Source of the DNA: Candidatus Electronema sp. JM
GTDB lineage: Bacteria; Desulfobacterota; Desulfobulbia; Desulfobulbales; Desulfobulbaceae
Direction: 5' to 3'
Assembly: GCF_048287415.1 (NCBI RefSeq)
Contig: NZ_JBLWEN010000001.1
Span: forward strand, 88,790 to 152,789
Length of the DNA: 64,000 nucleotides
The notes under the pieces are model-generated. The model worked only from the letters and a program-made list of their open reading frames with translations. It had not been told where the DNA came from and searched no databases. Shown here piece after piece: positions 20,287 to 63,860 of this stretch; within the stretch, counting starts at the first letter, position 1, and every line of letters starts with the position of its first letter. The translations under genes were made by a program, and so were the position numbers.

Positions 20287-20376
20287 GTTACGGTCTATTC
20301 AAAATCAATTACAAGGAAAATTTTTATGGTTATTCCGAGCACAACGAGGAATCTTTGCTGCTTCTGAAACATCCAT

Positions 20377-21864: not shown

Positions 21865-22040
21865 GTGTGCTCGTGGTGTATTGCAAGAAACGATGCAGGC
21901 AGGCTGCGGGGACAGTCGCCGCAGCGCCTTTACACATTCGATTCTAAAACTTCCTCATCGCCAACCTACGCTTGGCTGCGCAACTGCTTCGGATAAGGCT
22001 GTATCAACGTTGGCAGGCCAGCTCCGATCTTTTCAAGGCA

Positions 22041-42929: not shown

Positions 42930-42942
42930 TTTTGATCTCTCT

Positions 42943-43353
42943 TCATTTTTTATTTATTTGATCCCTGCCTATAAAAGTCCCTTCATTGACAAAGGTGGAA
43001 TTTTTGATAAGCACACCTCCTGTTTGCACAATTCTTTCTACCTTTACCCCATAAAGCCGTGCGATATCTAACGCTAATTCCTGATCTTCTTGGAGCAGCT
43101 TTTTCACTTGAAAGTGCAGAGTCTTCTGCGCATCTTCTTCTGAAGGATCCCGTACCACATCTTCTGCCGCCATTTTCACACCTTCAACTCTTGCAGAAGA
43201 ACGGGAAGAAATTTTTGTCCAGACAGCCTTGGCCGTCTCCCATCCGTCAGAACCTATTTTTTCTAACGCTCCTCCCAGTATCTGTCCCCCACCGCTCAAC
43301 AGATAAGGAAGTACTGGCACTAAAGAAGAAACAACCATTTCAGCAAGTTCCAT
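42943..43353 (-). CDS. Island gene A: small helical protein (136 aa) resembling N-terminal adaptor modules of conflict-system NTPases
   Basis: LVPVLPYLLSGG..ILGGALEKIGSDGWETAKAVWTKI...DPSEEDAQKTLHFQVKKLLQEDQELALDIARL is followed by EGTFIGRDQ. It is the first gene of the operon, 13 nt upstream of gene B. Confidence 0.55.
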   Translation of the reverse strand: MELAEMVVSSLVPVLPYLLSGGGQILGGALEKIGSDGWETAKAVWTKISSRSSARVEGVKMAAEDVVRDPSEEDAQKTLHFQVKKLLQEDQELALDIARLYGVKVERIVQTGGVLIKNSTFVNEGTFIGRDQINKK

Positions 43354-43653
43354 AGTTTTTTCTCAATGTCTCAAGTTGTTCCAGCAGCCAGAGCAATTCA
43401 GGCTTGACAAGGGCAGGCTGCCGATGAATACTGCGCTGCTCAGTATGTGATCACCTGCAATAAATTTCAAGTATTTTAAAAGGGCTTTTGAGCTGCCTTG
43501 CTGCCTGTCTCGGCGGTGCAACAGCGGAGGCCGTCACATCGTTTACATTGAAAAAACAAGGCTACAGGTCACAGCTTGGATTGAGCATTTACGTCGAGGA
43601 AGTTTTCAAATTATCTAAAAACTGAAATACTACAGCTTGCATGTCCGGCAGCT

Positions 43654-45081: not shown

Positions 45082-45084
45082 GGA

Positions 45085-46020
45085 TTAACGTGCCCAGCCT
45101 TGCCAGCCGGGATTCATGCTGAGTGTTTTCGCCCAAGACCGGGGCAGCAGGCGGTGCCGTCTGCCGAGCTGATAGGCGATGAATTTGCCTGCATTGCGGC
45201 AAAACCATTCCGGCAGGAGCTGGTATTTTTTCCGGGCCAACAGCAAGGCCAGCTCGGAACGCACATACTGCCTGCCTGCGCCGCCAGCCCCGCCGAACTG
45301 CCGCAGCAGAGCCTGCTCTTCGGCATGAAGCACGCCAATGTCGAAATACCGCCGCGCTTCCTGCATGATAGAGTAATTATGAGAATGCCAGACAAGGGCC
45401 TCGCTGACGTAGAGCACATCATAGCCGTTTTCAAGCAGTTTGGCCAAGGTCAAGGTGTCTTCGCCAAAAAGAAGCCGCTGCGGGAAATAACCAGCAGTAG
45501 CCAGCGGCTCCCGTCGCCATGCGGCAAAGGAATTGGAGATGAAAATGGTTTTGAAGCCGAATTTGGCTCGATCGTTCCAGCGGCGGCATTGCGCCTGCTC
45601 TGGATAATTGAAACGGCGCAGATGCTCGCTGAACAGCGTGGCATCTTGGGCCGGAAGCTGGCGGCCATAGGTGGCGGCCAGCCTGTCTTTATCGTGAAAA
45701 GGCCGGACTAATCGCTCCAGCGCGTCATCTGCCGCCGGAATTGCGTCTTGGCTCATGCAGATGAGAATTTCGCCGGAGGTCTGCTGGGCAGCCCAAGTGC
45801 GAGTGCCGCCGTGATCAAAATCCTGCTGAGGAATTTCCAGCAGGCGGATGGCCGGATTGGTGGTCTGATGCCGCCGGATGATGCTCAAACTGTTGTCAGT
45901 GGAGCCGGAATCCACCAGCAGAATTTCGTCGGGCAGCAAGGTCTGCCGGGCCAGCGCAGTGAGCAGCTCGTCCAGCCAGTACCCGCCGTTCCAAACAGGA
46001 ATAATGAGCGAGACGGTCAT
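45085..46020 (-). CDS. Family 2 glycosyltransferase (rhamnosyltransferase-like)
   Basis: SLIIPVWNGGYWLDELL.....Q......EILLVDSGSTDNS shows the GT-A N-terminal pattern. A 3-nt gap separates it from each neighbouring gene. Confidence 0.8.
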   Translation of the reverse strand: MTVSLIIPVWNGGYWLDELLTALARQTLLPDEILLVDSGSTDNSLSIIRRHQTTNPAIRLLEIPQQDFDHGGTRTWAAQQTSGEILICMSQDAIPAADDALERLVRPFHDKDRLAATYGRQLPAQDATLFSEHLRRFNYPEQAQCRRWNDRAKFGFKTIFISNSFAAWRREPLATAGYFPQRLLFGEDTLTLAKLLENGYDVLYVSEALVWHSHNYSIMQEARRYFDIGVLHAEEQALLRQFGGAGGAGRQYVRSELALLLARKKYQLLPEWFCRNAGKFIAYQLGRRHRLLPRSWAKTLSMNPGWQGWAR

Positions 46021-51000: not shown

Positions 51001-51341
51001 AAGGGGAGCAAAGCACGTGCTGCAGCTGCTCCGCCAGCAAAAGAAAGCAGCCTGCCACTCTCGCCGCCGCCATCTGACACCAGCGCGGCTCAACTCGGCA
51101 CTCTTCTGTTTTTTTCTCGCAGCATCCTAAAAATACGGCTGTTTCAGCCTGCCGTGTTATTTCAGCGTTCTTCCTGCTGAAATAATGTGTCAGGCTGCTG
51201 TTTTCCTCTTTGCTTCCGCCGCAGAATTGAGTAAATAACTCCCGCTGAAGCTGCGTGCGCAGCACTGTCTGCCAGTCTGCGCCGCAACCTGCTCTGCCTG
51301 CAAACAAATTGAACCACTTCAACATAAAGGAGAGACCAACG

Positions 51342-52265
51342 ATGTACATGTACCTGCCTGTCGCCCTCACCAGCGTGAACTTCCTGCTGGTGTCGGGCAT
51401 CGGATTCACGGTCGGAATGCTGTCCGGCCTTTTCGGCGTGGGAGGTGGCTGGCTGATGACCCCCCTGCTGATGATGATCGGCATTCCGCCCACCATTGCT
51501 GCGGGCACGGACGCGAACCAGATTGTGGCCGCCTCCACCTCCGGCATGTACACCCACTGGCGGCTGGGCAATGTGGACTACAAGATGGGCATCTGTCTGC
51601 TCATCGGCAGCTTCCTCGGCGGCGCTTTCGGCGTGCAGGTCATCAAAGTGCTCACCGCCACTGGCGGCGCGGACTTCCTGATCAAGATCACCTACGTGCT
51701 CATGCTGGGCATAGTCGGCTCCTTCATGTTTGTCGAGAGCCTGACAGCGATGAAGAAGGCCAAGAGCGGCGAGGCCAAGCCTGCCGCGCCAAAGGACAAT
51801 GCCAAGAAGAGCCTGATCATGCGTCTGCCCTTGCAGACCACCTTTGAGAAGTCCGGCGTGTCCTTCTCCGCGCTGGTGCCGGTGGGCCTTGGCGCCTTTG
51901 TCGGCCTGCTGGCGGCGATCATGGGCGTGGGCGGCGGCTTCCTCATGGTGCCGGTGATGATCTACATGCTGCGCATTCCGATGCACGTGGTGGTCGGCAC
52001 CAGCCTGTTCCAGATCCTCTTCACCTGCATTGAGGTGACCTTCCTGCAAGCCTACTACAACCGGACTGTTGACTTCCTCCTCGCCCTGCTCCTCCTGATC
52101 GGCTCGGTCTTCGGCGCACAGATCGGAGCGAAGCTGGGCCGCAAGCTGCACGGCGACCAGCTCAAGATCCTCCTTTCCGTCATCGTCCTGTCCGTGACCG
52201 TGAAGCTGGTTTTCGACTTGATACTCCAGCCTGCCAACCTGCTTTCCTACGCTGGAGGACATTGA
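51342..52265 (+). CDS. TSUP-family (TauE/SafE) anion exporter/permease
   Basis: ATG at 51342 with AAAGGAGAG RBS. The internally duplicated 4-TM halves each carry a G.GGG..M.P.L motif (GLFGVGGGWLMTPLLM and IMGVGGGFLMVPVMIY). Confidence 0.85.
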   Translation: MYMYLPVALTSVNFLLVSGIGFTVGMLSGLFGVGGGWLMTPLLMMIGIPPTIAAGTDANQIVAASTSGMYTHWRLGNVDYKMGICLLIGSFLGGAFGVQVIKVLTATGGADFLIKITYVLMLGIVGSFMFVESLTAMKKAKSGEAKPAAPKDNAKKSLIMRLPLQTTFEKSGVSFSALVPVGLGAFVGLLAAIMGVGGGFLMVPVMIYMLRIPMHVVVGTSLFQILFTCIEVTFLQAYYNRTVDFLLALLLLIGSVFGAQIGAKLGRKLHGDQLKILLSVIVLSVTVKLVFDLILQPANLLSYAGGH

Positions 52266-52267
52266 TC

Positions 52268-53029
52268 ATGCGCATGATGAAAACAGCCCTGCTCGCAGCC
52301 GCCGCGCTCGCGCTCTCCGTTCATGCCGCCGCTGCGGCAAGCATTCAGGCCGCTCCGTCGGACATCAAAATATCCCTGTTCTACCACGGCGCGGCTGTGG
52401 AGGTCAAAGGACAGGCTGCGCCGGGCGAGGACGTGCTGGTCAAAGTCACGCCCTCCGAGCAGCATGAGTTCCACCTCAAATACAAGGGCAAGGCCGCAGG
52501 CATCTTCTGGATGAAGCTCGGCACCTTGGTGTTTGAGAACCTGCCCAGCACCTATCTGCTCGCCTCCTCCGGCCCGGTTGACAAGGTGCTGGACGCGGAG
52601 GCGCGGACTGCCGAGAACGCGGGCTTGGACGCTTTGCAGAAGAAGGCGGTGATCAAGGCGGAGAAAGGCGCGATGCCTGCTGGCGACTGGTTCGGCCAGT
52701 TCCTTGATTTCAAGAAGAAGGAGAAGCTCTACAATGTTGAGGAAGGCACGGTGAAGGTCGGCGCGGACGGCAGCTACAGCTACACGCTGGCCTGGCCGTT
52801 CCAGGCTCCTCCGGGCAGCTACAAGATTGAGGCTGTCACCGCCAAAAACGGCAAGGTGACAGGCCACGCCGAGACAGCGCTCACGGTTGAGCTGACCGGC
52901 ATTGTCGCCCTGCTGGCTAAGATGTCCGCTGACAACCGCACGCTGTACGGCATCATCTCCATTGTCGTGGCTGTCGCCGCCGGTTTCGGCGTGGGCATGA
53001 TCTTCAAGAAGGGCGGCGGCTCGCACTGA
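52268..53029 (+). CDS. TIGR02186/Alph_Pro_TM-like protein (signal peptide + C-terminal TM anchor)
   Basis: Signal peptide MKTALLAAAALALSVHAAAA and C-terminal helix LYGIISIVVAVAAGFGVGMIF. The family call rests on recollection of its usual pairing with a TSUP permease. Start is ambiguous (52268, 52274 or 52277). Confidence 0.5.
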   Translation: MRMMKTALLAAAALALSVHAAAAASIQAAPSDIKISLFYHGAAVEVKGQAAPGEDVLVKVTPSEQHEFHLKYKGKAAGIFWMKLGTLVFENLPSTYLLASSGPVDKVLDAEARTAENAGLDALQKKAVIKAEKGAMPAGDWFGQFLDFKKKEKLYNVEEGTVKVGADGSYSYTLAWPFQAPPGSYKIEAVTAKNGKVTGHAETALTVELTGIVALLAKMSADNRTLYGIISIVVAVAAGFGVGMIFKKGGGSH

Positions 53030-53208: not shown

Positions 53209-53293
53209 TTGCACTATAGTGGAAGCAGCCATTGCACTACAGTGGAAACCTCGGTTGCACCATAGTGCAAACATCGGTTGCACTATAGTGCAA
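53209..53293. repeat. Four 16-bp palindromic sites (TTGCACTATAGTGCAA consensus) on an exact 23-bp period
   Basis: Copies start at 53209 (TTGCACTATAGTGGAA), 53232 (TTGCACTACAGTGGAA), 53255 (TTGCACCATAGTGCAA) and 53278 (TTGCACTATAGTGCAA, a perfect palindrome). Confidence 0.9.
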
Positions 53294-53311
53294 CCGCAAG
53301 CCACAGCCTGC

Positions 53312-53326
53312 TGGCCGCTTGGCTGC
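53312..53326 (+). promoter_or_regulatory. Candidate sigma-54 (-24/-12) promoter
   Basis: TGGCCGCTTGGCTGC fits the TGGC-N8-TGC spacing of the TGGCACG-N4-TTGC consensus. It lies 19 nt downstream of the palindrome array and 87 nt upstream of the ROCO ATG. Confidence 0.3.
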
Positions 53327-53412
53327 GAGGAAGCTGCAAGTATCCGAGCCATGCTCGAAGGCATTGCAGGGGCACCCTTAGCACAACCACACACCCACGG
53401 AGGAACGAGGCG

Positions 53413-55434
53413 ATGAGCAAAGAAGAAGCCTTGCAGCTAATTAAAGAGGCTGCGGAGACAGGGGCAACGTGGCTTAATCTCTTTAATCAAGGATTGAGTG
53501 AAATACCACCTGAGGTGTTTGCGCTTAAGCAGCTCACCTATCTTGGTCTCACTCATAATCGTCTCGCCTTTCTACCGCCAGAACTGTTTGAGATGAAGCA
53601 GCTCACCCAGCTTGAACTCAGCGACAATTGCCTTATCTCATTACCGCCTGAGGTGTTTACACTCAAACAATTAACCTTGCTTAACCTCATTCGCAACCAC
53701 CTTGTCACCCTACCGCCAGAGATTAATCAACTACCCAAGTTAAAAGATATTTGGTCTTTCGATAACCCCCTCGTCTCTCCTCCTTACGAAATAGCTATCA
53801 AAGGCATCTCAGCCATACGCGAATACTTCGCTGAAATGGAAGGCGAGAGCAAGGAGCTGGCCGAGGTCAAGATCATCCTTGTGGGCGAAGGCGCATCGGG
53901 CAAGACCTCATTAGTCAGGCGGCTGCGCGGGGAGCAGTTCGACCCGCACGAGCCAATGACGCACGGCATCAGCATCAACAAATGGCGGCCCGCAAGCGCA
54001 GGCCAGCTGCCCTGCTGCAATGTCTGGGACTTCGGCGGCCAAGAGATCATGCACGCCACGCACCAGTTTTTCCTTTCCCGCCGCAGCCTGTACGTCCTTG
54101 TCCTCGACAACCGGCGCGACGAGCGGCCCGAATACTGGCTGCGCTACATCGAAACCTTCGGCGGCGATTCGCCGGTCTTAGTGGTGCTCAACAAGCAGGA
54201 CATCAATCCCGGCTTTGATCTCAACCGGCCTTTTCTGCACGAGAAATACCCGTTCATCAAGGGCTTTTGGCCGCTTTCCTGCCACAGCGGACAGGGCATG
54301 GCGGCATTCACGCAAGCCTTGCACGAGGAGTTAGACAAGGTGCCCTTGAGCAAGAACCGCTGACCCGCAACCTGGTTCCGGGCAAAGGAAAAGCTGGAGC
54401 AGCTGCACGAGCCGCGCATCAACTACGAACGCTTCGAGCAAATCTGCCTTGAAGCCGGGGTGAAGGGCGCGACCACGCAGCAGGTCTTGGTGGATTTCCT
54501 CAACGATCTGGGCACGGTCATTCACTTTGATCAATTTGAGCTGAACGATCATCACGTCCTTAATCCGCAATGGGTGACAGAGGCGGTGTACAAGATCATC
54601 AACGCGCCGTCGGTGGCACATGCCAAGGGCCTGCTGCACGTGGATGCGCTGGCGGACATCTTAGCAAAGAAGAAGGACAGCGAGCATCGTTATTATCCCG
54701 CTGATCACCATTACATCATCGAGCTGATGAAGAAGTTCGAGCTGTGCTATCAAGTGGGTGAGAGCGAGGTGCTGATACCGCAGCTTTTGGCCGTGCCTGA
54801 GCCTTCCTTCACCTTTTATTACAGCAATGCCCTGCGTTTTGTTCTCCATTATGAGGACTTCCTGCCGCCGTCTGTCATGCCCCGCTTTATTGTCAATCGG
54901 CATAAAGAGATTCAAGGCGAACTGCGCTGGCGCAGCGGCGTTGTCCTGAAGAATGCGCAGCTTGATGCCAGCGCGGTGGTGCGGGCGGATGACGAGGCCC
55001 GCCGCATTCATATCGCTGTGACCGGCAAGGAGCGCAAAATCTTCCTCGCCCTGATTTGGCTCACTCTGCGGGAAATCAATGCGGGCTTTGAAGGCTTGAA
55101 GGTCAGCGAGCGCGTGCCCATGCCGGATGAGCCGGAACGCAGCGTGGATTACGAGACACTTCTCAGCTATGCGGAACAGGGCTTGGAAAAGATTATCCCC
55201 GAAGGCACGAAAAAGGCATATAGTGTGAAAGAGCTGCTGGAACGGGTGCATTTCGCCAATGAAAGCGAGGGCAGGCAGATGCTGGCTTTGGCTGAGGGTG
55301 AACGGAAAGGCGGAGCAGTGAACAAAACAGGCGCCGCATTGAACACCATGTTCAAGCTGGAGCCTTCAGTTTTTGGCGTGGGAATCAACCTCAATGCGAT
55401 GTTTGACGCTCTGCTGAAATGGCAGAGGAAGTAA
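53413..55434 (+). pseudogene. ROCO protein (LRR - Roc GTPase - COR) interrupted by one in-frame TGA at 54361-54363
   Basis: LRRs, then the linker NPLVSPPYEIAIKGISAIREYFAE. Roc G1 GEGASGKTS, G3 WDFGGQE, G4 NKQD. The COR region is (TGA)PATWFRAKEKLEQLHEPRINYERFEQIC...VLVDFLNDLGTVIHF...IIELMKKFELCY. ORFs 53278-54363 and 54460-55434 share a frame, with no other stop between them. Confidence 0.8.
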
Positions 55435-55545: not shown

Positions 55546-55785
55546 ATGAGATGCGTATGCTGCGGAGGGCCGCTCAAAAGCGGCACAGTGACATTCAGCT
55601 ATGAGGATGAGGAAGCATACATCTTTGTTGAGCATGTTCCGGCTGATGTATGCAGTCATTGCGGCGAGAAAGTGTATTCCCCGGCTGTTGCGGACATGCT
55701 GCTGGATATCGCTCAAAGGAAGAGCGAGCCAGTCAAGATGCTCCATATCCCTGTTTATGATTTTGCTCAAACGAAGAGAACATGA
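55546..55785 (+). CDS. YgiT-type (MqsA N-terminal-like) zinc-finger protein, no HTH domain
   Basis: MRCVCCGG...GTVTFSYEDEEAYIFVEHVPADVCSHCGEKVYSP shows the CxxC...CxxC YgiT pattern. The stop overlaps the next start (ATGA). Confidence 0.7.
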   Translation: MRCVCCGGPLKSGTVTFSYEDEEAYIFVEHVPADVCSHCGEKVYSPAVADMLLDIAQRKSEPVKMLHIPVYDFAQTKRT

Positions 55786-57314
55786 CTCCACCTGTCGGCC
55801 TGGCCAAGCACGAGCAGCTGCAAGCGCTTGCAGCTCAATACGGCTGCCCTGTCCTGGAATACAGCGAGAAGGTCAGCGTGCCGTTCCTCATCCTCATTCA
55901 GCTCAATGCGGAGCAGCTGCGGCAGGAAGGCTGGCTGCCGCTACACGTCACGGAAGAGAAGGTGAAAATCCTCACGCACCGCGCCCCGGACGAGGTCGCC
56001 GCCGCTGTCCGCCAGACGCTGGGCGAGGTGGAGCTTGATTTTGTCCTCACTGTGCCGCATGACTTTATCCGGGTCTTTGAGCACAGCTGCGATCTCAACC
56101 CCAGATTCCCCATGCCCGCAGGCCGCACGCCGCTGGCCAGAGTGCGCACTTACTTCGCAGGCCGCCGCTCGCTTTTCGCGCACTACCGCACCTTGATGGC
56201 CAAAAGCCGCACCGATCTGGCCACCGTCCGCACCGCGCTGTCCTTCATGACCATCGCCCTGCTCGGCGTGCGGGTCTTCGGCCTGGGCACGCTGGCAGTG
56301 CTGGAGCTGCCGCTCTTTCTCCTCGGCGCATGGGTCTGCGTTGACAGCATCGTCAGCTACCTGCCTGCCCGCCGGGTGAAAAGCCGTCTGCCCGCCTGCT
56401 CCGGCACCACGCCGACCAACGGCACCACAGTCTTGGCGGCCTCGAACGCGGAGGATTTCCCGCTCTTCCGCCGCCTGCCTGAGACACCGGGCGCAGCCGC
56501 CTTGCGGGCAGGCTGGACCAAGCTCACCCCGCTGATGCGCCGCCGCTTTCTCGCCAGCGACCGCACCGACATGGCCGAGGAGCGGACAACGCTGGCCTGC
56601 CTCCGCACCAAAATGGCGAAGGCGCGCACCGGCCTGGCTTTTGTCCGCACCGGCCTGGCCTTTTTCTCCCTCGGCTTCGGCCTGATGCGGGCCTTTCCCG
56701 AAGTCATTTATTGGCACATCTTAGATGTGAGTTTGATGGCCGCCGGAATCCTCATGGCACTGGAAGGCTTCTTCTGGTATAAAAAAGGTCGGCCTGCGGG
56801 CGAGGAAGGGCAGGCTTCGGTGGAGAAAGCGAACAAGGCGGGCACGATCTGGGATTTCTTCTTCCCGCATGTCGCGGCCTGCCCCAGCCCCAATCCCCTG
56901 CAAACCCCGCCAGTGCGCCGCTCGCACGCGCCGGGCCTCTGGGCGACCACAGGTCTAGCTTTGGAGCGCACCGTCTTAGCTGACCGCCGCAATGTCATGG
57001 CGCGGCTACGGACGGTCATGGCCCGCTCGCGCACGGGCATGGCCTTCATCCGCACCGGCCTGAGCATCCTGCTGATCGGTGTCACCTTCTTGGTCTCCTT
57101 CCCGGATGCGGGCCTGCTCTGGCAGCTGCTCGACTGGTGCCTGATCCTCGGCGGCTCCGTCTTAGTTGCGGACGGCTTTTACTGGACGGTGCCTGCGGAG
57201 CGGAAACGGACGGAGTTCCCCTACTGCTTCGCGGATTTGGAAATAGCTCTGGCGGATTACGGCATTCCCTCCCGCCATTGGCGGAAGACGGTGTTTTATC
57301 GTGCAAGCAAGTAA
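55782..57314 (+). CDS. Membrane protein: T2SSE_N (GspE/MshE N-terminal-like) domain + three DUF202 (YidH-like) modules
   Basis: The N-terminal ~100 aa fit the GspE_N pattern (QYGCPVLEY...LNAEQLRQEGWLPLHV.EEKVKILTHRAPDEVAAAVRQTLG.VELDFVLTVPHDFIRVFE). There are three RTxLAxxRTxLA motifs (SRTDLATVRTAL, ERTTLACLRTKMAKARTGLAFVRTGLA, RNVMARLRTVMARSRTGMAFIRTGL), each followed by paired TM helices. Confidence 0.7.
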   Translation: MTPPVGLAKHEQLQALAAQYGCPVLEYSEKVSVPFLILIQLNAEQLRQEGWLPLHVTEEKVKILTHRAPDEVAAAVRQTLGEVELDFVLTVPHDFIRVFEHSCDLNPRFPMPAGRTPLARVRTYFAGRRSLFAHYRTLMAKSRTDLATVRTALSFMTIALLGVRVFGLGTLAVLELPLFLLGAWVCVDSIVSYLPARRVKSRLPACSGTTPTNGTTVLAASNAEDFPLFRRLPETPGAAALRAGWTKLTPLMRRRFLASDRTDMAEERTTLACLRTKMAKARTGLAFVRTGLAFFSLGFGLMRAFPEVIYWHILDVSLMAAGILMALEGFFWYKKGRPAGEEGQASVEKANKAGTIWDFFFPHVAACPSPNPLQTPPVRRSHAPGLWATTGLALERTVLADRRNVMARLRTVMARSRTGMAFIRTGLSILLIGVTFLVSFPDAGLLWQLLDWCLILGGSVLVADGFYWTVPAERKRTEFPYCFADLEIALADYGIPSRHWRKTVFYRASK

Positions 57315-58539
57315 CGAGACGCTCCTGACGGCCTTGGCCCGGAAGGGCGTTCTGCCGGCAGAGACGCTGGCGGAGATTGAGCAGGCCGCCACGCTGCGCG
57401 GGCTGGCGCCTGCGACGCTGCTGGTCTATGAGTACAATGTGCCGCGCGTCACGCTGCTGGAGGCCTTGGCTGAGATTCACGCCTGCCAGCCGGTGGAGTA
57501 TGATGAGCGGCTGCCCATCCCGCCGGACTTCCTGCCCAAGCTCTCCGGTCCGGCCTTGCTGAAGGAAGGCTGGTTCCCCATCTTCTTGGAGGAGGACGGC
57601 ACTGTGACGGTCGCCGCCTCCAACCCTGCCGCGCCGGGCCTGTGCGCTTCGGTGCGGCAGACGCTCGGATGCAGCAATGTGGTCTGCATGGTCACCCTGC
57701 CGGAGGACGTGCAGTGGTTCATTCAGGATTATCTGCACGCGCCGCCCGGCCTGCTTATCGGCACTGAGCGCACTGGCCTGGCCTATTGGCGCAACACCAT
57801 GGCCCAGTGGCGGACGCTGCTCGCCTGCTGCCGCACCGACATGGCCAAGGCGCGCACAGCACTGGCCTTTGGCCGCTTTGGCCTCTCGCTGATCACGGTC
57901 GCCATGACCTTGCTGCGCCTGACTCCGCCGCGCCTGCCCAAGCCTGCGGCCTTCCTCCTCCTGGCTTTGGGCCTGCTCTGCAACGGACTGGGCGTGGCGG
58001 TGTATCTGCGGATCCGCCGCTCGCAGCTACGCCCGCCCGGCAGCCAGACGATCATGGAAGTGACTGCGGCCACCATCTCGTTCTTGGAGCAGTACCATTT
58101 CCCGGAAGAGCTGAAGGGCAGCCTGCCGCCGCCGCAGACCGGCGCATCCATGCTCGCCCGCCTGGGAGAGCTGCTCGCCGACTACTCGACCATCCTTTTC
58201 CCGGCTCCGCCCAGCCGCGAGCGCACGCATCTGGCCCGTGAGCGCAACGTGCTGGCGGCCCAGCGCACGGTGGCTGCTTGTTACCGCACCATCTATGCCC
58301 GCGCCCGCACTGGGCTGGCCTTCACCCGCACTGGCGTGAGCTTCTTCAGCTTTGGCGTGGGCCTGATCCTCTATTTCGGCCTCGGCCTGAACACCATCTT
58401 TGATGCGCTGCTGATTGCCGCAGGCCTGCTGATGATCACCGACGGCCTGCTCTGGTATCTGCCGGTGCGCAAAGAGCAGGCCGAGCTGCCGCGCTCGCGC
58501 AGCGGTGCCCTGGCTGGCTGGGAGGATGACGACGAATGA
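57301..58539 (+). CDS. Paralogous membrane protein: T2SSE_N-like domain + two DUF202 modules
   Basis: GTG start overlaps the upstream gene by 14 nt. ARKGVLPAETLAEIEQAA...LSGPALLKEGWFPIFLEEDGTVTVAASNPAAPGLCASVRQTLG...MVTLPEDVQWFIQDYL is followed by RNTMAQWRTLLACCRTDMAKARTALAF and ERNVLAAQRTVAACYRTIYARARTGLAFTRTG. Confidence 0.7.
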   Translation: MQASNETLLTALARKGVLPAETLAEIEQAATLRGLAPATLLVYEYNVPRVTLLEALAEIHACQPVEYDERLPIPPDFLPKLSGPALLKEGWFPIFLEEDGTVTVAASNPAAPGLCASVRQTLGCSNVVCMVTLPEDVQWFIQDYLHAPPGLLIGTERTGLAYWRNTMAQWRTLLACCRTDMAKARTALAFGRFGLSLITVAMTLLRLTPPRLPKPAAFLLLALGLLCNGLGVAVYLRIRRSQLRPPGSQTIMEVTAATISFLEQYHFPEELKGSLPPPQTGASMLARLGELLADYSTILFPAPPSRERTHLARERNVLAAQRTVAACYRTIYARARTGLAFTRTGVSFFSFGVGLILYFGLGLNTIFDALLIAAGLLMITDGLLWYLPVRKEQAELPRSRSGALAGWEDDDE

Positions 58540-59942
58540 AGATCCTGCACCGCATCTGCCTGTCTGACGCGATCAACATCTGCCTTTTGGTGCTGATCGG
58601 CCTCTTTGCGATCCACTCCTTTGACGAGCTGCTGGCCAAGTTCCGCTTCACCACGATTGCTGACGGCCTCAACGCGGCCTTTTTGGAAATGCGCATCGCC
58701 GAGAAGAACTATCTTCTTTACGGCGACAAGGAGGCCCTGAACTCCATTTCCACCCGCATTGCTGAGACTGTCCCGGTCTTGGAGAAAGAGCGGGAGAACA
58801 TCGAGCAGGTCACGGGCGGCAGCGACTACAAGTACCTTGTCCAGCTGCTGGCCGAGTACCGCAGCGATGTCCTTGCCCTGCGAGACGGGCATGGCGCGGA
58901 CAAGCGGGTGCGGGAGTCCGGCCACAGCCTGCGCGCCTTCTCCGAACATCTCACCGCCATGGAGCGGGACAAGGTGGCGCAGATCATCGAGCGCTCGAAA
59001 GCCGTGCTCCGTCATTCCTTCTGGGCGGTGATCTTCTTCGCCTTTGTCTTCACCCAGTGGAATGCGCGGAGCATCCGCCGTTCCCTTCGGCAGGTGGAGC
59101 AGCTGACACGCTCGATTGCCAAGGGCGAGTTCTCCCTTATCCAAGAGAAGCCAGCGGCAGATGAGCTGGGTTCCATCGTCCAGGCGATCAGCACGATGTC
59201 GGACGAACTGAACCGGCGCGAAGAGGAGATTGTCCGCTCCAAGCGCCTGGCTTCCATTGGTGTGTTGGTGGCCGGTGTGGCCCATGAGCTGAACAATCCG
59301 CTCAACAACATCTCCATGATTGCGCAGACCTTCACAGAGCTGCACGACAAGCTGAACAGCGGGCAGCAGCTGGAGTTCATGGCCCAGATTGATGAGGAGA
59401 CCGAACGCCTGCGGGTGACAATCAAGAACCTGCTTGATTTCTCCAAGCCCAAGGAGAAGGAAATGGAGCCGCGCTGCCTGAACGAGGTGGCGCAGAAATG
59501 CATTGGCTTAGTGCAGAACATGCTGACCATCGGCAACATCCGCACCAAGCTGGCCTTGGCCGAAAACCTGCCCCAGCTCTGCTTGGACGAGCACCAGATT
59601 CAGCAGGTGCTGGTGAACATGCTGATCAACGCCATTCAGGCCATGCCGCCCGGCGGCGTGCTCAGTGTCAGCACCCGCCTGCTGCCTGAGCAGCACATGG
59701 CGGAAATAGAAATCAGCGACACCGGCAAGGGCATTCCGCCGGAGCTGATCAACCACATCTTCGACCCCTTCTTCACGACTAAAGACGAGGGCGGCACCGG
59801 CCTTGGTCTCTGGGTCAGCTACGGAATCATCAAAAACCACGGCGGGGAGATTCACGTCAAGAGCACAGTGAACAAGGGCACGACCTTCACTGTCACCCTG
59901 CCGACAGACTTGGAGCGATGTCAGCTATGCACAGCATCATGA
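58536..59942 (+). CDS. Sensor histidine kinase (TM, HAMP, HisKA, HATPase)
   Basis: ATGA overlap with the upstream gene. H-box VAGVAHELNNPLNN, N-box NMLINAIQAM, and G-boxes DTGKGIP and GTGLGLWV. Confidence 0.85.
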   Translation: MKILHRICLSDAINICLLVLIGLFAIHSFDELLAKFRFTTIADGLNAAFLEMRIAEKNYLLYGDKEALNSISTRIAETVPVLEKERENIEQVTGGSDYKYLVQLLAEYRSDVLALRDGHGADKRVRESGHSLRAFSEHLTAMERDKVAQIIERSKAVLRHSFWAVIFFAFVFTQWNARSIRRSLRQVEQLTRSIAKGEFSLIQEKPAADELGSIVQAISTMSDELNRREEEIVRSKRLASIGVLVAGVAHELNNPLNNISMIAQTFTELHDKLNSGQQLEFMAQIDEETERLRVTIKNLLDFSKPKEKEMEPRCLNEVAQKCIGLVQNMLTIGNIRTKLALAENLPQLCLDEHQIQQVLVNMLINAIQAMPPGGVLSVSTRLLPEQHMAEIEISDTGKGIPPELINHIFDPFFTTKDEGGTGLGLWVSYGIIKNHGGEIHVKSTVNKGTTFTVTLPTDLERCQLCTAS

Positions 59943-60307
59943 TTATTGACGACGAACGGATAGTGGGCGACATGGCCAAACTGTCCCTCAGTCAGGATGG
60001 CTACGATGTGGAAACGTTTCTCGACGGCGAGAGCGCGCTGAGGCGGCTCAAGGAGAAGAGCTTCGCTGTCGTGGTCACGGATTTGAAGATGAAAGGCGTG
60101 GACGGGCTGGAAGTCTTGCGCAACGTCAAGCAGCTTTATCCGGCAACAGCGGTGATCATGATCACTGCCTTCGCCAATCTTGATGTGGCCATCGAGGCTC
60201 TGCGCGACGATGTTTTTGATTTCTTCCCCAAGCCGGTGAAGATCAAAGACCTGAAAGCGTCGGTCAAGCGGGCAGTGGAAAAGGGAAACATGCCGCAGGC
60301 AGGCTGA
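59927..60307 (+). CDS. Single-domain response regulator (CheY-like REC)
   Basis: IMIIDDE...VVVTDLKMKGVDGLEVL...VIMITAF......A......DFFPKP. Start is ambiguous (59918, 59927 or 59939); 59939 would give an ATGA overlap with the kinase stop. Confidence 0.85.
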   Translation: MHSIMIIDDERIVGDMAKLSLSQDGYDVETFLDGESALRRLKEKSFAVVVTDLKMKGVDGLEVLRNVKQLYPATAVIMITAFANLDVAIEALRDDVFDFFPKPVKIKDLKASVKRAVEKGNMPQAG

Positions 60308-60478: not shown

Positions 60479-60506
60479 GTAGGGGCGAAAAATTTTTCGC
60501 CCCTGC
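60479..60506. repeat. REP-like element copy 2 (identical 28-mer containing the 24-nt perfect palindrome)
   Basis: GTAGGGGCGAAAAATTTTTCGCCCCTGC is identical to 31998-32025. Confidence 0.9.
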
Positions 60507-60542
60507 AGCATTGCGGAAAACATGCAAAGGAGGAACGAGGCG

Positions 60543-60674
60543 ATGAACAAAGAAGAAGCCTTGCGGCGGATTAAACACGTGGAGGAGACAGGAGCAACGA
60601 GGCTTGATCTGAGCTTTCAAAGATTGACTGAACTGCCGCCTGAACTCTTTCAAATAAAAAATGAACCAACTTGA
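60543..60674 (+). pseudogene. Truncated duplicate of the ROCO/LRR gene 5' end (43 codons)
   Basis: GGAGGAACGAGGCGATGA(A/G)CAAAGAAGAAGCCTTGC is shared with 53399-53434, with one mismatch in 36 nt. The product MNKEEALRRIKHVEETGATRLDLSFQRLTELPPELFQIKNEPT* parallels the ROCO N-terminus, then terminates where the PpsA-like ORF begins. Confidence 0.7.
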
Positions 60675-63261
60675 TAGTTCTGCCGACAAAGGAGCAACTC
60701 TCCGCAGCCTGTGGACTGCCTTGCTCAAGCTGCTGCCGGGCCGCAGCGCGCCGCCAGTCAGCCCGCGTCTGGTCTTTGAACGCTTTCAGAAGGTGCTGGC
60801 CAGCAACAATCAGGCTTTGGAGATCATTGCCGATCTGGGCGAGAAGCTGGGCGGCGACTACCTCTTTGACATGCGCTATGTTGAGTCCTCGGTTGAGGAG
60901 CTGATTGCGGCGGTGCACAGCTCAGTGCTGGCGGTGAATGAGCTGTGCGGCGACCGTCACGCCAAGCTGCATCAGGTGCATGAGCGTCTGAGCGAGGACT
61001 TGCGCCTGACCCTGGCTGGCCGTGAAGACCGCGAGGGGCCGCTGATCTTCACGCTGGATGAGATCCGCCCGCGCAACTGGGCCTTGGTCGGCGGCAAGGC
61101 CGCGCACTTGGCGGTGATGCGGCATGATCCGCAGCTGCGCGTGCCGGACGGCTTTGTCATCACCGCCCGCGCCTACAACGATCTGATTGACCATAACGGC
61201 CTGCGGCAGCAGCTCACTGCTTTTGAGGAGCTGATGTCCGCCACTGAGCCGGATGCCGACCTGCTGGAGGAGCAGCGCAGCTTGATTGAACAGGCCGTGC
61301 TCGCTGCCGCGCCGCCGCCGGGCCTGTTGGACGCGCTTGCCCAAGCAGCAGGCCGTCTGCCGCAGACCAGCAAGCCGCTCTTCTTGGCGGTGCGCAGCTC
61401 GGCGCAGGAGGAAGACATGGACTTCTCCTTTGCCGGCCAGTTCACGTCGGTGCTCAACGTGCCTGCCCAGCCGGATGCGCTCTTTGCTGCTGCCCGCGAG
61501 GTGATGGCCAGTCTGTTCTGCGCCGGGGCTGTGTCGTACCGCCGCCGCGTCTTCCCGGATGAAGGCAAGATGGCTATTGCCGTGGTCTGCCAGCGGATGG
61601 TGGATTCCCGCAGCAGCGGCATCGTCTTTTCGGTGGACACCATGCAGCTCGCTCACGACACGATGGTGGTGGTGGCCGCGTGGGGCCAAGGCGAGGCGGT
61701 GGTGGAAGGCGGCACAGCCACTGACACCTTCCAGCTCCACAAGGGGCCGCCGCTGCGCATCGCTGCCCGGCAGGTGGCGGACAAAGAGCAAGGCCTCTTT
61801 GCCGGAGCCGAGAGCGGCCTGACCAGCCGGGCCATCGCCAAGGAGCTGCGCACTGCGTCCTGTCTCTCAGACGATGAGCTGCTCCAGCTTGGCAGCACAG
61901 CCCTGCACTTGGAAACGCTCTTCAAGCGGCCGCAGGACATCGAATGGGCCTTTGACAGCAGCGGCCAGCTCTACATTCTCCAAGCCCGGCCCTTGGTGCT
62001 CAACACCCCGGCGCGGGAAAAGGCCCTGCCAGTCCGTGTGGAGCAGCACGAGGTCATCTGCGCCGGACAAGGCAAAGTGGCCCAGCAAGGCATTGCCGCC
62101 GGGCCAGTGCATTTGGTCAATTTTGCTGAGGAGACCGGCGAGTTCACGGAAGGCTCAGTGCTGGTCACGCACCACGATTCCTCCCGCCTCGTCACCTACA
62201 TCCAGCGGGCCGCCGGTGTCATCACCGAGACCGGCACGCCGGTCAGCCACATGGCCACCATCTGCCGCGAGTTCCAAGTGCCCTGCTTGGTCAATGTGGG
62301 CAGCATCCTCGGCAAGGTGCGCGAAGGCGAGCTGATCACCGTGGACGCGGAAGACCGCCGCATCTATCGAGGCTTAGTTGACGAGCTGCTGGTCTATCGC
62401 GCCACCTCCTGCATCAACCTGATGTCCAGCCGCGAGTTCCGCCTGCTCCGCCGCATTCTCAAGAAGGTCTCTGAGCTGCATCTGGTGGATCCGATGATGC
62501 AGGACTTCAGCATAGACGGCTGCCGCACCTATCACGACATTCTCCGCTTCTCGCATGAGTCAGCAGTGCAGGAGATGGTCAACCTTGGCCGCGATGAGCG
62601 GCGGCTGATCAAGGGCAGCATCGTCCGGCCGATGAAGCTGCCCATTCCCACCGGCATTCTGGTGATTGACATCGGCGGCGGCCTTGCCTCTGACGCGCCT
62701 GAGCGCGATGTGCCGTTTCAGGCCATTGCTTCCGTGCCCTTCCGTGCTGTGCTGCAAGGGATGCTCTTCCCGGAGATATGGCACAACAATCCTATGCCGG
62801 TAGGCATCCGCGACCTGATGAACAGCATGTTCAGTCCGATCCGCGAAGAGGCGGCGGAGCAGTACAGCGGCCACAACATCGCCATCATCGGCGGAAATTA
62901 TGTCAATCTTTGCTTTCGTCTGGGCTATCATTATAATATTATAGACGCGCACTGCGGCGAGGCGGAGCAGAACAACCATCTTTACTACCGCTTTCTGGGC
63001 GGCGTGACGGACATGACCAAACGCTCGCGCAGGGCGGCGATGATCGCGCAGATACTCAAGGAGTTCGAGTTCAATGTCCAGACCAAAGGCGACCTGGTCA
63101 CAGCCCGGCTCTCGCGCCTGCCGCAGCGGGAGGCCGAGCGCGCGCTGGACATCCTTGGCAGACTGGTGGGCTACACCCGCCAGCTGGATGTGCGCATGGA
63201 GAGCGACAATGATCCGGGCAGATATGCCGAAGCGTTCCTGAACGGGGAATACAGGGTTTGA
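60661..63261 (+). CDS. PpsA-like protein: PEP synthase-type ATP-grasp + swivelling phospho-His domain + ~300-aa non-canonical C-terminal domain
   Basis: NWALVGGKAAHLAVM, LAVRSSAQEEDMDFSFAGQFTSVLNV, MAIAVVCQRMVDSRSSGIVFSVD, QDIEWAFDSSGQLYILQARPL, and the mobile domain AGVITETGTPVSHMATICREFQVPCLV. The C-terminal region lacks the PEP-utilizer TIM-barrel motifs I know (no GTNDLTQ-like segment). Confidence 0.75.
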   Translation: MNQLDSSADKGATLRSLWTALLKLLPGRSAPPVSPRLVFERFQKVLASNNQALEIIADLGEKLGGDYLFDMRYVESSVEELIAAVHSSVLAVNELCGDRHAKLHQVHERLSEDLRLTLAGREDREGPLIFTLDEIRPRNWALVGGKAAHLAVMRHDPQLRVPDGFVITARAYNDLIDHNGLRQQLTAFEELMSATEPDADLLEEQRSLIEQAVLAAAPPPGLLDALAQAAGRLPQTSKPLFLAVRSSAQEEDMDFSFAGQFTSVLNVPAQPDALFAAAREVMASLFCAGAVSYRRRVFPDEGKMAIAVVCQRMVDSRSSGIVFSVDTMQLAHDTMVVVAAWGQGEAVVEGGTATDTFQLHKGPPLRIAARQVADKEQGLFAGAESGLTSRAIAKELRTASCLSDDELLQLGSTALHLETLFKRPQDIEWAFDSSGQLYILQARPLVLNTPAREKALPVRVEQHEVICAGQGKVAQQGIAAGPVHLVNFAEETGEFTEGSVLVTHHDSSRLVTYIQRAAGVITETGTPVSHMATICREFQVPCLVNVGSILGKVREGELITVDAEDRRIYRGLVDELLVYRATSCINLMSSREFRLLRRILKKVSELHLVDPMMQDFSIDGCRTYHDILRFSHESAVQEMVNLGRDERRLIKGSIVRPMKLPIPTGILVIDIGGGLASDAPERDVPFQAIASVPFRAVLQGMLFPEIWHNNPMPVGIRDLMNSMFSPIREEAAEQYSGHNIAIIGGNYVNLCFRLGYHYNIIDAHCGEAEQNNHLYYRFLGGVTDMTKRSRRAAMIAQILKEFEFNVQTKGDLVTARLSRLPQREAERALDILGRLVGYTRQLDVRMESDNDPGRYAEAFLNGEYRV

Positions 63262-63273
63262 CAAGGAGACGGA

Positions 63274-63717
63274 ATGCAGCTTACAACCACGGCCAGCGAC
63301 AGCTCTGACCTGCTCATTATTGATGACGAGCCGATCATCGGCAAGCGGCTGCAACACACCTTCAGCAAAATTGGACTGAACGCGCAGGCCTTCACCAGCC
63401 CGCAGGCGGCGATGGAGCGTATCAGCAGTGCGCCGGTCCATGTGGTGATCACCGATTTCCGCATGAAGGGCATGGACGGCCTGGAGGTCTTCCGCCAGGT
63501 CAAAAAATTGAGTCCGCGCAGCAAGGTGATCATCATCAGCGGCTACGCCAGCCCGGAGACGGTGGACATCGCTTTTCAGGAAGGGGTGTTCGATTTTCTC
63601 GTCAAGCCGTTCCGCTTGGACGAACTGAAGGAGGCGGTGCGTCGGGCGCTGGAGGAGATCAGCAGGGAGCGGAAAGCAGAAGCGTCAGCCGCGCCATCTC
63701 CAGTGTATGGCATGTAG
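63274..63717 (+). CDS. Single-domain response regulator (CheY-like REC)
   Basis: RBS AAGGAGA. LLIIDDE...HVVITDFRMKGMDGLEVF...VIIISGY......A...G..DFLVKPF. Confidence 0.85.
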   Translation: MQLTTTASDSSDLLIIDDEPIIGKRLQHTFSKIGLNAQAFTSPQAAMERISSAPVHVVITDFRMKGMDGLEVFRQVKKLSPRSKVIIISGYASPETVDIAFQEGVFDFLVKPFRLDELKEAVRRALEEISRERKAEASAAPSPVYGM

Positions 63718-63753
63718 AATTGTCCCCTGCGTTGAGTGGCTACGTGATGCAGC

Positions 63754-63771
63754 AGGGGCGAAAAATTTTTC
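63754..63771. repeat. REP-like element copy 3, truncated after the left arm and loop
   Basis: AGGGGCGAAAAATTTTTC matches the first 18 nt of the 24-nt palindrome and then diverges (ACACCTTATATT...). The upstream motif CCCTGCGTTGAG (63725-63736) is shared with copy 1 (31963-31974). Confidence 0.75.
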
Positions 63772-63860
63772 ACACCTTATATTAGAGCCTGTTACTGTTA
63801 ACACTAGACCTCTTGCGTAAGTCACAACTTATTGATAAAAGAAGCTATGACCTGTTAGCA

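What the first reader, a model, noticed from the sequence alone, without database searches (positions are those of the whole stretch)
55546..60307. Translationally coupled operon: YgiT zinc finger, two T2SSE_N-DUF202 membrane proteins, histidine kinase, CheY-like REC
Five co-oriented genes are joined by ATGA or longer overlaps at 55782-55785, 57301-57314, 58536-58539 and around 59927-59942. The two central paralogs fuse a GspE/MshE N-terminal-type domain to 3 and 2 DUF202 (YidH-like, RTxLAxxRTxLA) membrane modules. In MshE that N-terminal fold is a cyclic-di-GMP receptor. I do not recognise this fusion as characterised. The arrangement suggests a membrane signalling complex, possibly nucleotide-second-messenger gated, that feeds a two-component pair. 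It is headed by an MqsA-N-like zinc finger with no DNA-binding domain.
Basis: partly seen in the sequence, partly recalled or inferred. Interest (0 to 1): 0.6.

Follow-up and report, generated by a model that had tools for sequence, protein, structure and literature searches.

The report
Arginine-ladder membrane pair with kinase operon
A cable-bacterium operon encodes two uncharacterised membrane proteins that together carry five copies of the hairpin that builds the yeast polyphosphate channel, each extended by a strictly conserved ladder of arginines; they always travel with a sensor kinase, a receiver protein and usually a PEP-synthase-like enzyme, and their function is unknown.

Summary
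Five co-oriented genes with the stated overlaps lie at 55546-60307, in Candidatus Electronema sp. JM. HMMs and fold searches confirm the YgiT finger, the MshEN-type heads, 3+2 DUF202 modules, a HAMP histidine kinase and a REC-only protein.

The interpretation needs three corrections.
1. The zinc finger is not part of the system. It is absent from 80/80 related genomes. In close relatives it is the partner of a DUF4258 toxin-like gene, so it is an orphaned antitoxin-like insert.
2. The c-di-GMP idea is not supported. The MshEN binding motif, strict or relaxed, is absent from 240/240 family members, and gene 2 lacks the binding subdomain.
3. The conserved unit is gene2-gene3-HK-REC, usually followed by a PEP-synthase-like dikinase without a PEP/pyruvate domain.

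New here: each DUF202 module is a 2-TM hairpin whose first helix carries 5-6 heptads of R-T-x-L-A-x-x. That gives 29 invariant arginines. Two rungs per module align with the pore-lining K24/R31 of yeast Vtc1.

Best model, about 0.35: a 3+2 five-hairpin, VTC/TehA-like arginine-lined conduit or binding tube for an anion, under two-component control. No literature describes it.

The parts
55546..55785 (+). g1: 79-aa YgiT-type zinc finger. It is an orphaned antitoxin-like gene and not part of the conserved system.
   Evidence: TIGR03831 scores 42.4 bits. It is absent from 80/80 related loci. It is paired with DUF4258 in L085, L086 and L088. A remnant of the DUF4258 3' end lies upstream.
55782..57314 (+). 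g2: 510-aa membrane protein with a half MshEN head and three DUF202 hairpin modules.
55782..56096 (+). g2 residues 1-105: C-terminal alpha/beta subdomain of an MshEN/GSPII-type domain. The c-di-GMP-binding four-helix subdomain is missing.
56103..56381 (+). g2 module 1: Arg ladder (R115-R150, plus R108 in this genome only), then TM1 and TM2.
   Evidence: AF2 helices 115-166 and 172-200.
56535..56792 (+). g2 module 2: Arg ladder R254-R289, then TM1 and TM2.
   Evidence: AF2 helices 250-304 and 310-352.
56937..57209 (+). g2 module 3: Arg ladder R396-R424, then TM1 and TM2.
   Evidence: AF2 helices 390-439 and 445-476.
57301..58539 (+). g3: 412-aa membrane protein with a full MshEN-fold head and two DUF202 hairpin modules.
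57301..57741 (+). g3 residues 1-147: MshEN/GSPII fold with a degenerate nucleotide motif.
57745..58026 (+). g3 module 1: Arg ladder R157-R192, then TM1 and TM2.
   Evidence: AF2 helices 156-206 and 214-241.
58201..58482 (+). g3 module 2: Arg ladder R308-R343, then TM1 and TM2.
   Evidence: AF2 helices 308-359 and 365-394.
58536..59942 (+). g4: membrane histidine kinase. It has TM1, an extracytoplasmic helical domain of about 135 aa, TM2, HAMP, HisKA and HATPase_c.
   Evidence: It is adjacent to g3 in 57/71 genomes.
59918..60307 (+). g5: single-domain receiver (CheY-like). The DD, D55, T and K positions are present. It is the most conserved gene of the set, at 68-86% identity.
60481..60504 (.). 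Perfect palindrome GGGGCGAAAAATTTTTCGCCCC, a terminator-like element 174 nt after g5. It is the probable end of the transcription unit in this genome.
   Evidence: (I6).
60661..63261 (+). 866-aa PEP-synthase-like dikinase. It has a PPDK_N ATP-grasp domain, a phosphohistidine swivel domain, and a family-specific C-terminal domain of about 290 aa in place of the PEP/pyruvate barrel. It is a paralogue of the enzyme that follows g5 in most genomes.
   Evidence: The neighbourhood count is 52/60.
63274..63717 (+). Second single-domain receiver. It is paired with the dikinase, as it is in Desulfurivibrionaceae and other loci.
51255..53029 (+). TauE/SafE-family permease (51255-52265) and Alph_Pro_TM protein (52262-53029). 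They are frequent upstream neighbours of the pair. Here they are separated from it by an inserted LRR-Roc-COR gene and g1.
   Evidence: Alph_Pro_TM lies upstream in 26/58 genomes.

Best explanation
The core is a conserved, uncharacterised module: g2, g3, HK and REC, usually with a PEP-synthase-like dikinase. It occurs in Desulfobulbales (including cable bacteria), Nitrospirota/Thermodesulfovibrionales and a few other sulfur-cycling lineages.

Shown:
- g2 and g3 are ancient paralogues that are always adjacent and translationally coupled.
- Together they supply five DUF202 hairpins.
- Each hairpin's first helix is a continuous helix of about 50 residues. Its cytoplasmic 30-35 residues repeat R-T-x-(L/M)-A-x-x.
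- The Arg of 29 rungs is invariant across phyla.
- Rungs 4 and 5 of each module occupy the DUF202 profile positions of Vtc1 K24 and R31, which line the yeast polyphosphate channel.

Inferred:
- One g2 and one g3 assemble into a closed five-hairpin ring. This would resemble the VTC pentamer or the five-hairpin TehA/SLAC1 anion channels.
- The inner helices of the ring continue into the cytoplasm as an alpha-helical barrel. Its lumen is lined by arginine (heptad position a) and threonine.
- This tube binds or conducts an anionic ligand, probably one bearing phosphate or a sulfur oxyanion.
- The two MshEN-like heads have lost the c-di-GMP site and act as docking domains for cytoplasmic partners, either the receiver or the dikinase.
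- The HAMP kinase and the stand-alone receiver either control the assembly or report its state.
- The dikinase is the enzymatic partner.

g1 is an unrelated toxin-antitoxin remnant.
For: - Co-conservation in 80 species genomes: g2 74/75, HK 68/71 within 10 kb, REC 64/68, dikinase 52/60. The same order appears in complete genomes of Thiovibrio and Hydrosulfovibrio and in Nitrospirota.
- The 14-nt g2/g3 overlap is conserved across phyla.
- All five module types match PF02656.
- Heptad statistics: a = R 97%, b = T 76%, d = L/M 76%, e = A 82%. The Arg is 98-100% conserved at all 29 rungs, 100% at 28 of them.
- The Vtc1 sequence matches PF02656 with K24 at profile position 1 and R31 at position 8. 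The modules match from rung 4 at position 1.
- VTC is a 3:1:1 pentamer whose five TM1 helices form the pore. K24 and R31 line it and R31 forms the constriction (PMC9911596).
- The AF2 model of g2 has pTM 0.80 with three long hairpins.
- A singleton protein carries five DUF202 modules in one chain (P0316).
- The a/d/e pattern resembles the hpphhph repeats of alpha-helical barrels, in which a and d face the lumen (PMC8503928).
Against: - No experiment exists, and no heteromer model could be computed.
- The modules have two TM helices, not the three of Vtc1 and YidH.
- Several Nitrospirota carry two g2 paralogues plus g3, which is 8 modules (L027, L034, L035, L037, L054).
- No natural g2-g3 fusion was among the 150 best-scoring of 1.84 billion representatives, where a five-module chain would rank first.
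- Relatives with 15-24 heptads before a single hairpin (P0261, P0264) look more like a long coiled-coil stalk than a pore.
- Twenty-nine arginines in one lumen need counter-charges.
- The ligand is unknown. No polyphosphate gene is in the cluster.
Confidence: 0.35

Rival explanations
1. Accessory sensor or scaffold. g2 and g3 form a non-conducting membrane complex that senses a membrane or cytoplasmic cue. It modulates the adjacent HAMP kinase by direct contact, as LiaF, YycHI or BceAB-type partners do for their kinases. The arginine ladders would be polar zippers or a stalk that positions the MshEN heads.
For: - g3 and the HK are adjacent in 57/71 genomes and share an ATGA overlap here and in L001, L087 and L088.
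- The receiver is single-domain and very conserved at 68-86% identity, which suggests protein-protein outputs.
- Relatives with very long ladders look like stalks.
- Conserved acidic residues at c and g positions (D260, D263, E266, E267, E314, D180) could pair with ladder arginines.
Against: - The kinase has its own extracytoplasmic domain of about 135 aa.
- An invariant Arg at every a position in 29 heptads is stronger conservation than a scaffold would seem to need.
- The homologous positions in Vtc1 line a pore.
- The toroid and TehA fold hits suggest an arc of a ring.
Confidence: 0.3
2. The MshEN heads are cyclic-di-GMP (or other nucleotide) receptors that gate the membrane complex and so feed the two-component pair.
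For: - The g3 profile matches PilF, PilB and MshE sequences.
Against: - The strict motif and the relaxed motif of Wang et al. 2016 are absent in 240/240 members. A control built from a recalled VcMshE-like N-terminal sequence was detected twice.
- The glycines at motif positions 3 and 10 are replaced, and the first RLG is not conserved.
- g2 lacks the binding subdomain.
- XpsE, with similar substitutions, does not bind (PMC5013675).
- No GGDEF, EAL or HD-GYP family is among the Pfam hits of any gene called in the seven related loci L001-L004, L085, L087 and L088.
Confidence: 0.07
3. A remnant or variant of a type II secretion or type IV pilus machine, as some database names suggest ('type II secretion protein', 'GspE N-terminal domain-containing').
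For: Source annotations. The MshEN fold.
Against: The proteins have no T2SSE ATPase domain. No pilin, secretin or platform gene appears in any of the loci examined.
Confidence: 0.02

Closest known systems
Eukaryotic VTC polyphosphate polymerase/translocase (Vtc1/Vtc3/Vtc4), transmembrane DUF202 domain
   Same: - Same Pfam family, PF02656.
- Five DUF202 units per presumed assembly: 3+1+1 in VTC, 3+2 here.
- Basic residues 7 apart at the cytoplasmic start of TM1. Vtc1 K24 and R31 correspond to ladder rungs 4 and 5.
- Built from unequal subunits.
   Different: - Two TM helices per module, not three.
- The ladder is extended to 5-6 rungs and projects into the cytoplasm.
- No TTM polymerase and no SPX domain.
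- The modules are concatenated in two chains.
- The partners are a histidine kinase, a receiver and a PEP-synthase-like dikinase.
- Assembly and substrate are untested.
Bacterial YidH/DUF202 small inner-membrane proteins
   Same: DUF202 core with the ERTxLAWxRT motif. Function is unknown; YidH showed no D-alanine export activity (PMC10299036).
   Different: YidH is a single module of about 115 aa with three TM helices and two rungs. It has no cytoplasmic head domain and no kinase neighbourhood.
MshE/PilB/PilF/GspE N-terminal (MshEN, GSPII) domains
   Different: - The tandem 24-residue c-di-GMP motif is missing.
- Half of the domain is missing in g2.
- The domain is fused to a membrane domain instead of a secretion ATPase.
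- This architecture is not in the published MshEN catalogue.
TehA/SLAC1 anion channels and designed circular tandem-repeat toroids
   Different: There is no detectable sequence relationship. TehA has all five hairpins in one chain and no cytoplasmic ladder.
PEP synthase, pyruvate phosphate dikinase and rifampicin phosphotransferase family (for the co-conserved neighbour)
   Same: ATP-grasp PPDK_N domain and a phosphohistidine swivel domain with the S-H motif.
   Different: The C-terminal 290 aa match no Pfam family and no PDB sequence. The paralogues sit next to single-domain receivers. The acceptor substrate is unknown.
DUF4258 / YgiT-type zinc-finger gene pairs (putative type II toxin-antitoxin; MqsA N-terminal finger)
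   Same: g1 matches TIGR03831. In relatives it lies directly behind a DUF4258 gene, with a 4-nt overlap in L088.
   Different: The DUF4258 partner is deleted here. g1 has no HTH domain (TIGR03830 scores 16.8 bits against a 61.8 cut-off).

Membership tests
MshEN domain (PF05157) as c-di-GMP receptor | Match to the Pfam model at or above the gathering score. | tested here: met
   g3 scores 33.4 bits against 23.1. g2 scores 22.6, just below the cut-off and covering the C-terminal subdomain only.
MshEN domain (PF05157) as c-di-GMP receptor | MshEN/GSPII three-dimensional fold. | tested here: met
MshEN domain (PF05157) as c-di-GMP receptor | Tandem 24-residue motif RLGxx(L/V/I)(L/V/I)xxG(L/V/I)(L/V/I)xxxxLxxxLxxQ, or the authors' relaxed form. 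| tested here: not met
   0/120 in the g3 family and 0/120 in the g2 family. A control built from a recalled VcMshE-like sequence was found twice. The motif definition is from PMC5013675.
DUF202 (PF02656) | Match to the Pfam model at or above the gathering score. | tested here: met
   47.6 and 45.2 bits against 23.4. All 30 isolated modules match at E<=0.01.
DUF202 (PF02656) | Three transmembrane helices per unit, as in Vtc1 and YidH. | tested here: not met
   Each module has two helices in the membrane by hydropathy and by AF2.
VTC-type pentameric polyanion channel | Five DUF202 units forming one pore with TM1 innermost. | not testable with these tools
   The count of 3+2 = 5 is consistent, and g2 models as a 3-hairpin arc. 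No heteromer prediction or coordinates were available.
VTC-type pentameric polyanion channel | Basic residues at the positions of Vtc1 K24 and R31. | tested here: met
   Invariant Arg occupies both positions in all five modules. The Vtc1 sequence was recalled from memory. Its numbering agrees with PMC9911596.
VTC-type pentameric polyanion channel | Catalytic TTM tunnel domain and SPX sensor domains in the complex. | tested here: not met
   No such Pfam hits occur in any gene of the operon or its neighbours.
Two-component system | HisKA plus HATPase_c kinase, and a receiver with the acidic pocket, phospho-acceptor Asp, Thr and Lys. | tested here: met
   The g5 sequence shows DD11-12, D55, T83 and K105.
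MqsA antitoxin | N-terminal zinc finger plus C-terminal HTH DNA-binding domain, next to an MqsR toxin. | tested here: not met
   The finger alone is present. TIGR03830 scores 16.8 bits against 61.8. The partner in relatives is DUF4258, not MqsR.
PEP synthase / PPDK | PPDK_N, then the PEP-utilizers swivel domain, then the PEP-utilizers_C TIM barrel. | tested here: not met
   The first two domains are present (250 and 62 bits). The C-terminal 286 aa match no family. PDB matches end at residue 577.
GspE/PilB secretion ATPase | T2SSE ATPase domain. | tested here: not met
   Absent from g2 and g3.

The most novel reading that the evidence does not exclude
The module is a bacterial counterpart of the eukaryotic VTC machine. 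A dikinase-type enzyme (ATP-grasp plus phosphohistidine) would be docked through the MshEN heads onto a 3+2 DUF202 ring. It would feed a phosphate polymer or other phosphorylated polyanion into an arginine-lined tube and across the cytoplasmic membrane, with the kinase and receiver setting the rate. This would be a polyphosphate or phospho-polymer export route unknown in bacteria. It would be present in cable bacteria and other sulfur-cycling anaerobes.
Probability: 0.08. Interest if true: 0.9.

Novelty: new variant of a known kind. Interest (0 to 1): 0.6.

Why it matters
DUF202 is a large family. Its only understood members form the polyphosphate channel of eukaryotic VTC, and no bacterial member has a function. 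This family offers an unusually clear handle for three reasons:
- The stoichiometry is fixed at 3+2.
- It has 29 invariant arginines that can be mutated.
- It has a fixed set of partners: kinase, receiver and a dikinase with an unknown acceptor.

It is restricted to sulfur-cycling lineages that include cable bacteria. If the pair is a conduit for a polyanion, that would be a new transport principle in bacteria and would date the VTC pore architecture to before eukaryotes. If the pair is a sensor, it is a new class of kinase accessory. The work also removes two misleading leads, the c-di-GMP idea and the zinc finger.

Tried and rejected
- Sequence searches of g2 and g3 against PDB chains found nothing. 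Profiles of g2 and of single modules also found no VTC chain. Only the g3 head matched, to PilF, PilB and MshE.
- hhalign of the module profile against one recalled Vtc1 sequence was weak (probability 1.7%, E = 0.03). It did place R38 of the module on R31 of Vtc1.
- The module profile was searched against 1.84 billion representatives to look for a natural g2-g3 fusion. None was found. It did reveal one five-module singleton and the long-ladder relatives.
- A PADLOC scan gave no defence-system match for the operon.
- Promoter and terminator scans were no better than shuffles.
- Literature searches for DUF202, YidH, MshEN architectures, PPDK_N with two-component genes, and Alph_Pro_TM gave no description of this system.
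- A type II secretion or pilus role and a defence-system role were considered and rejected.


Full report
**Origin and observation**

The window is from Candidatus Electronema sp. JM, a freshwater cable bacterium; gene 3 is 100% identical to a protein of that organism.

- g1 runs 55546-55785, and its stop overlaps the g2 start in ATGA at 55782-55785.
- g2 runs 55782-57314.
- g3 starts at GTG 57301, 14 nt before the g2 stop.
- g3 and g4 overlap in ATGA at 58536-58539.
- The g4 stop at 59940-59942 overlaps the 5' end of g5. Possible g5 starts are 59918, 59927 and 59939.

A perfect palindrome, GGGGCGAAAAATTTTTCGCCCC, lies at 60481-60504 after g5.

**Domains**

- g1 matches the YgiT finger model TIGR03831 (42.4 bits), but not the full MqsA model.
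- g2 and g3 both match DUF202 above the Pfam threshold.
- g3 matches MshEN above threshold (33.4 bits).
- g2 scores 22.6 bits against a cut-off of 23.1.
- g4 is a HAMP-HisKA-HATPase_c kinase with an N-terminal TM helix and an extracytoplasmic stretch of about 135 residues.
- g5 is a receiver-only protein with all phospho-acceptor residues.

**The cyclic-di-GMP idea**

Wang et al. 2016 define the receptor by two tandem 24-residue motifs and give a relaxed search pattern (PMC5013675). Neither pattern occurs in the first 200 residues of any of the 120 g3-type or 120 g2-type proteins. A control built from a recalled VcMshE-like N-terminal sequence is found twice.

The profile alignment to PilF shows that the second motif has Ala for Gly at position 3 and Tyr-Gly for Gly-Leu at positions 10-11. 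The first RLG lies in a variable N-terminus. The paper notes that XpsE, with comparable substitutions, does not bind. The MshEN-DUF202 architecture is not in that paper's catalogue; a search of its supplement for DUF202 and YidH gave no hit. I therefore rate nucleotide gating as unlikely, though only a binding assay can exclude it.

**Gene neighbourhood**

A pattern scan of one genome per species found 225 genomes with a g3 relative, and the best 80 loci were fetched. By their titles, about 47 are Nitrospirota (Thermodesulfovibrionales, Sulfobium, Dissulfurispiraceae) and about 30 are Desulfobulbales or 'delta'. The rest include one Thiotrichaceae and Hydrosulfovibrio.

Mapping the window's proteins onto these loci gave these counts among assessable loci:

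| Neighbour | Count |
|---|---|
| g2 directly upstream of g3 | 74/75 |
| Kinase adjacent to g3 | 57/71 |
| Kinase elsewhere within 10 kb | 11 more |
| Receiver | 64/68 |
| PPDK_N + PEP-utilizers protein downstream | 52/60 |
| Alph_Pro_TM (with TauE) upstream | 26/58 |
| Two further PEP-synthase-like paralogues directly upstream of g2 | 12/58 |

Annotated contigs from Thiovibrio, Hydrosulfovibrio ferrireducens and a Nitrospirota MAG show the same order and the same 14-nt g2/g3 overlap.

In this genome the PEP-synthase-like gene at 60661-63261 and a second receiver at 63274-63717 follow the operon. All paralogues share a C-terminal domain of about 290 aa that matches no Pfam family and no PDB sequence. 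The PEP/pyruvate barrel is absent.

**The zinc finger**

g1 has no homologue in any of the 80 loci. Only six close relatives exist in 5.8 billion clusters, all 79 aa and 67-85% identical.

- In L088 the order is LRR-Roc-COR, PIN, DUF4258, finger, g2, g3, HK, REC. DUF4258 and the finger overlap by 4 nt.
- In Candidatus Electronema aureum the DUF4258-finger pair lies elsewhere, away from g2.
- In L087 and in the window the DUF4258 gene is gone. DNA similar to its last 40 nt persists upstream of the finger's ATG.

g1 is thus the surviving half of a toxin-antitoxin-like pair that landed against the start of g2. It arrived together with an LRR-Roc-COR gene that separates the pair from TauE and Alph_Pro_TM in Electronema.

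**The modules and the arginine ladder**

A module HMM finds three full-length copies in g2 and two in g3. The DNA shows the same five places as a 21-nt periodic repeat. Every isolated module matches PF02656. Each module is one continuous helix of about 50 residues followed by a second helix of about 30. Hydropathy puts only the last third of the first helix, and the second helix, in the membrane.

The cytoplasmic part of the first helix repeats R-T-x-(L/M)-A-x-x. Over 52-54 diverse homologues the heptad positions are a = Arg 97%, b = Thr 76%, d = Leu/Met 76% and e = Ala 82%. In 28 of 29 rungs the Arg is 100% conserved, and in the other it is 98% (6, 6 and 5 rungs in g2; 6 and 6 in g3). Mean column identity of the alignments is 61-64%.

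The Pfam DUF202 model begins at rung 4 of a module. A yeast Vtc1 sequence matches the same model with K24 at position 1 and R31 at position 8. That sequence was recalled from memory; its numbering agrees with the paper. Rungs 4 and 5 therefore correspond to K24 and R31.

In the cryo-EM structure, VTC is a 3:1:1 pentamer. Its five TM1 helices form the channel, K24 and R31 line it, and R31 makes the narrowest point (PMC9911596).

**Model**

From this I infer that g2 (three hairpins) and g3 (two hairpins) close a five-hairpin ring. Four further observations fit this inference.

- The a/d/e heptad pattern resembles the hpphhph repeats of alpha-helical barrels, whose a and d residues face the lumen (PMC8503928).
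- One singleton protein (P0316) has five DUF202 modules in a single chain.

The likely result is a tube lined by arginine and threonine. It would start about 45 A inside the cytoplasm and continue into the membrane, and it would bind or conduct an anion. Phosphate-bearing polyanions are suggested by analogy with VTC and by the dikinase partner. Sulfur oxyanions are suggested by the TauE neighbour and the lineage distribution. The heads would dock partners, and the kinase and receiver would regulate the assembly or read it out.

**Weaknesses of the model**

- No VTC chain appeared in any sequence-profile search or among the fold-search hits shown.
- The modules have two TM helices, not three.
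- Some Nitrospirota have two g2 paralogues.
- No g2-g3 fusion was among the 150 best-scoring of 1.84 billion representatives.
- Relatives with 15-24 heptads before one hairpin look like stalks.
- I could not compute a heteromer or inspect coordinates.

The main rival has similar weight: a non-conducting accessory complex of the kinase, with the ladder acting as a zipper or stalk.

**Novelty**

The proteins are annotated only as DUF202, YidH-like or 'GspE N-terminal domain' proteins. Searches of 8 million papers found nothing on the fusion or the cluster. E. coli YidH remains without function. The parts are known families, but the architecture, the ladder and the conserved module are not described. 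I file it as a new variant of a known kind, with interest 0.6.

Noticed in passing
window 53278-55434: The LRR-Roc-COR (ROCO-type GTPase) gene is split by a single in-frame TGA at 54361-54363. The window reads KNR*P where the Electronema KV orthologue, one 649-aa ORF, reads KNQWP. It is a pseudogene, a sequencing error or a read-through codon.
   Followed up: partly
window 60529-60650 (copy of 53399-53520): A 122-nt copy (79% identical) of the 5' end of the LRR-Roc gene sits as a stub just before the PEP-synthase-like gene. In Electronema KV the same interval (L006 13003-17283) holds PIN-like, NB-ARC/TPR and DUF1016-like ORFs. The gap after g5 is therefore an insertion hot spot.
   Followed up: partly
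window 60481-60504 and 63747-63777: Related palindromic elements (GGGGCGAAAAATTTTTCGCCCC and a 90% complementary copy) follow g5 and the second receiver gene. They may be a repeated bidirectional terminator or a small repeat element.
   Followed up: no
window 53209-53277: Three tandem 23-nt units (TTGCACTATAGTGGAAGCAGCCA and variants) lie immediately upstream of the LRR-Roc gene.
   Followed up: no
window 18001-22000 and 40001-44000: Two low-G+C stretches (0.47-0.51 and 0.40-0.43, against about 0.58 elsewhere). The second abuts sugar-transferase and glycosyltransferase genes at 43654-46020.
   Followed up: no
P0261, P0264, P0263, P0267, P0273 (metagenomic proteins): Relatives with a single DUF202 hairpin preceded by 15-24 uninterrupted RTxLAxx heptads. 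This is an arginine-ladder helix that could be 150-250 A long.
   Followed up: partly
P0316 (476 aa, 2-kb Logan contig): A singleton protein with five DUF202 modules in one chain, each with the short two-rung ladder.
   Followed up: partly
L027, L034, L035, L037, L054 (Nitrospirota): These loci carry two g2-type paralogues in tandem before g3. They may be alternative three-hairpin subunits.
   Followed up: no
window 60661-63261 and paralogues in L001 and L002: Up to four PEP-synthase-like paralogues per locus share a C-terminal domain of about 290 aa with no known family. Each sits next to a single-domain receiver or a kinase. They look like a family of two-component-associated dikinases with an unknown acceptor.
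   Followed up: partly
window 1905-2942: Another leucine-rich-repeat coding region is related to the LRR part of the Roc-COR protein (tblastn hits, 39-55% identity).
   Followed up: no
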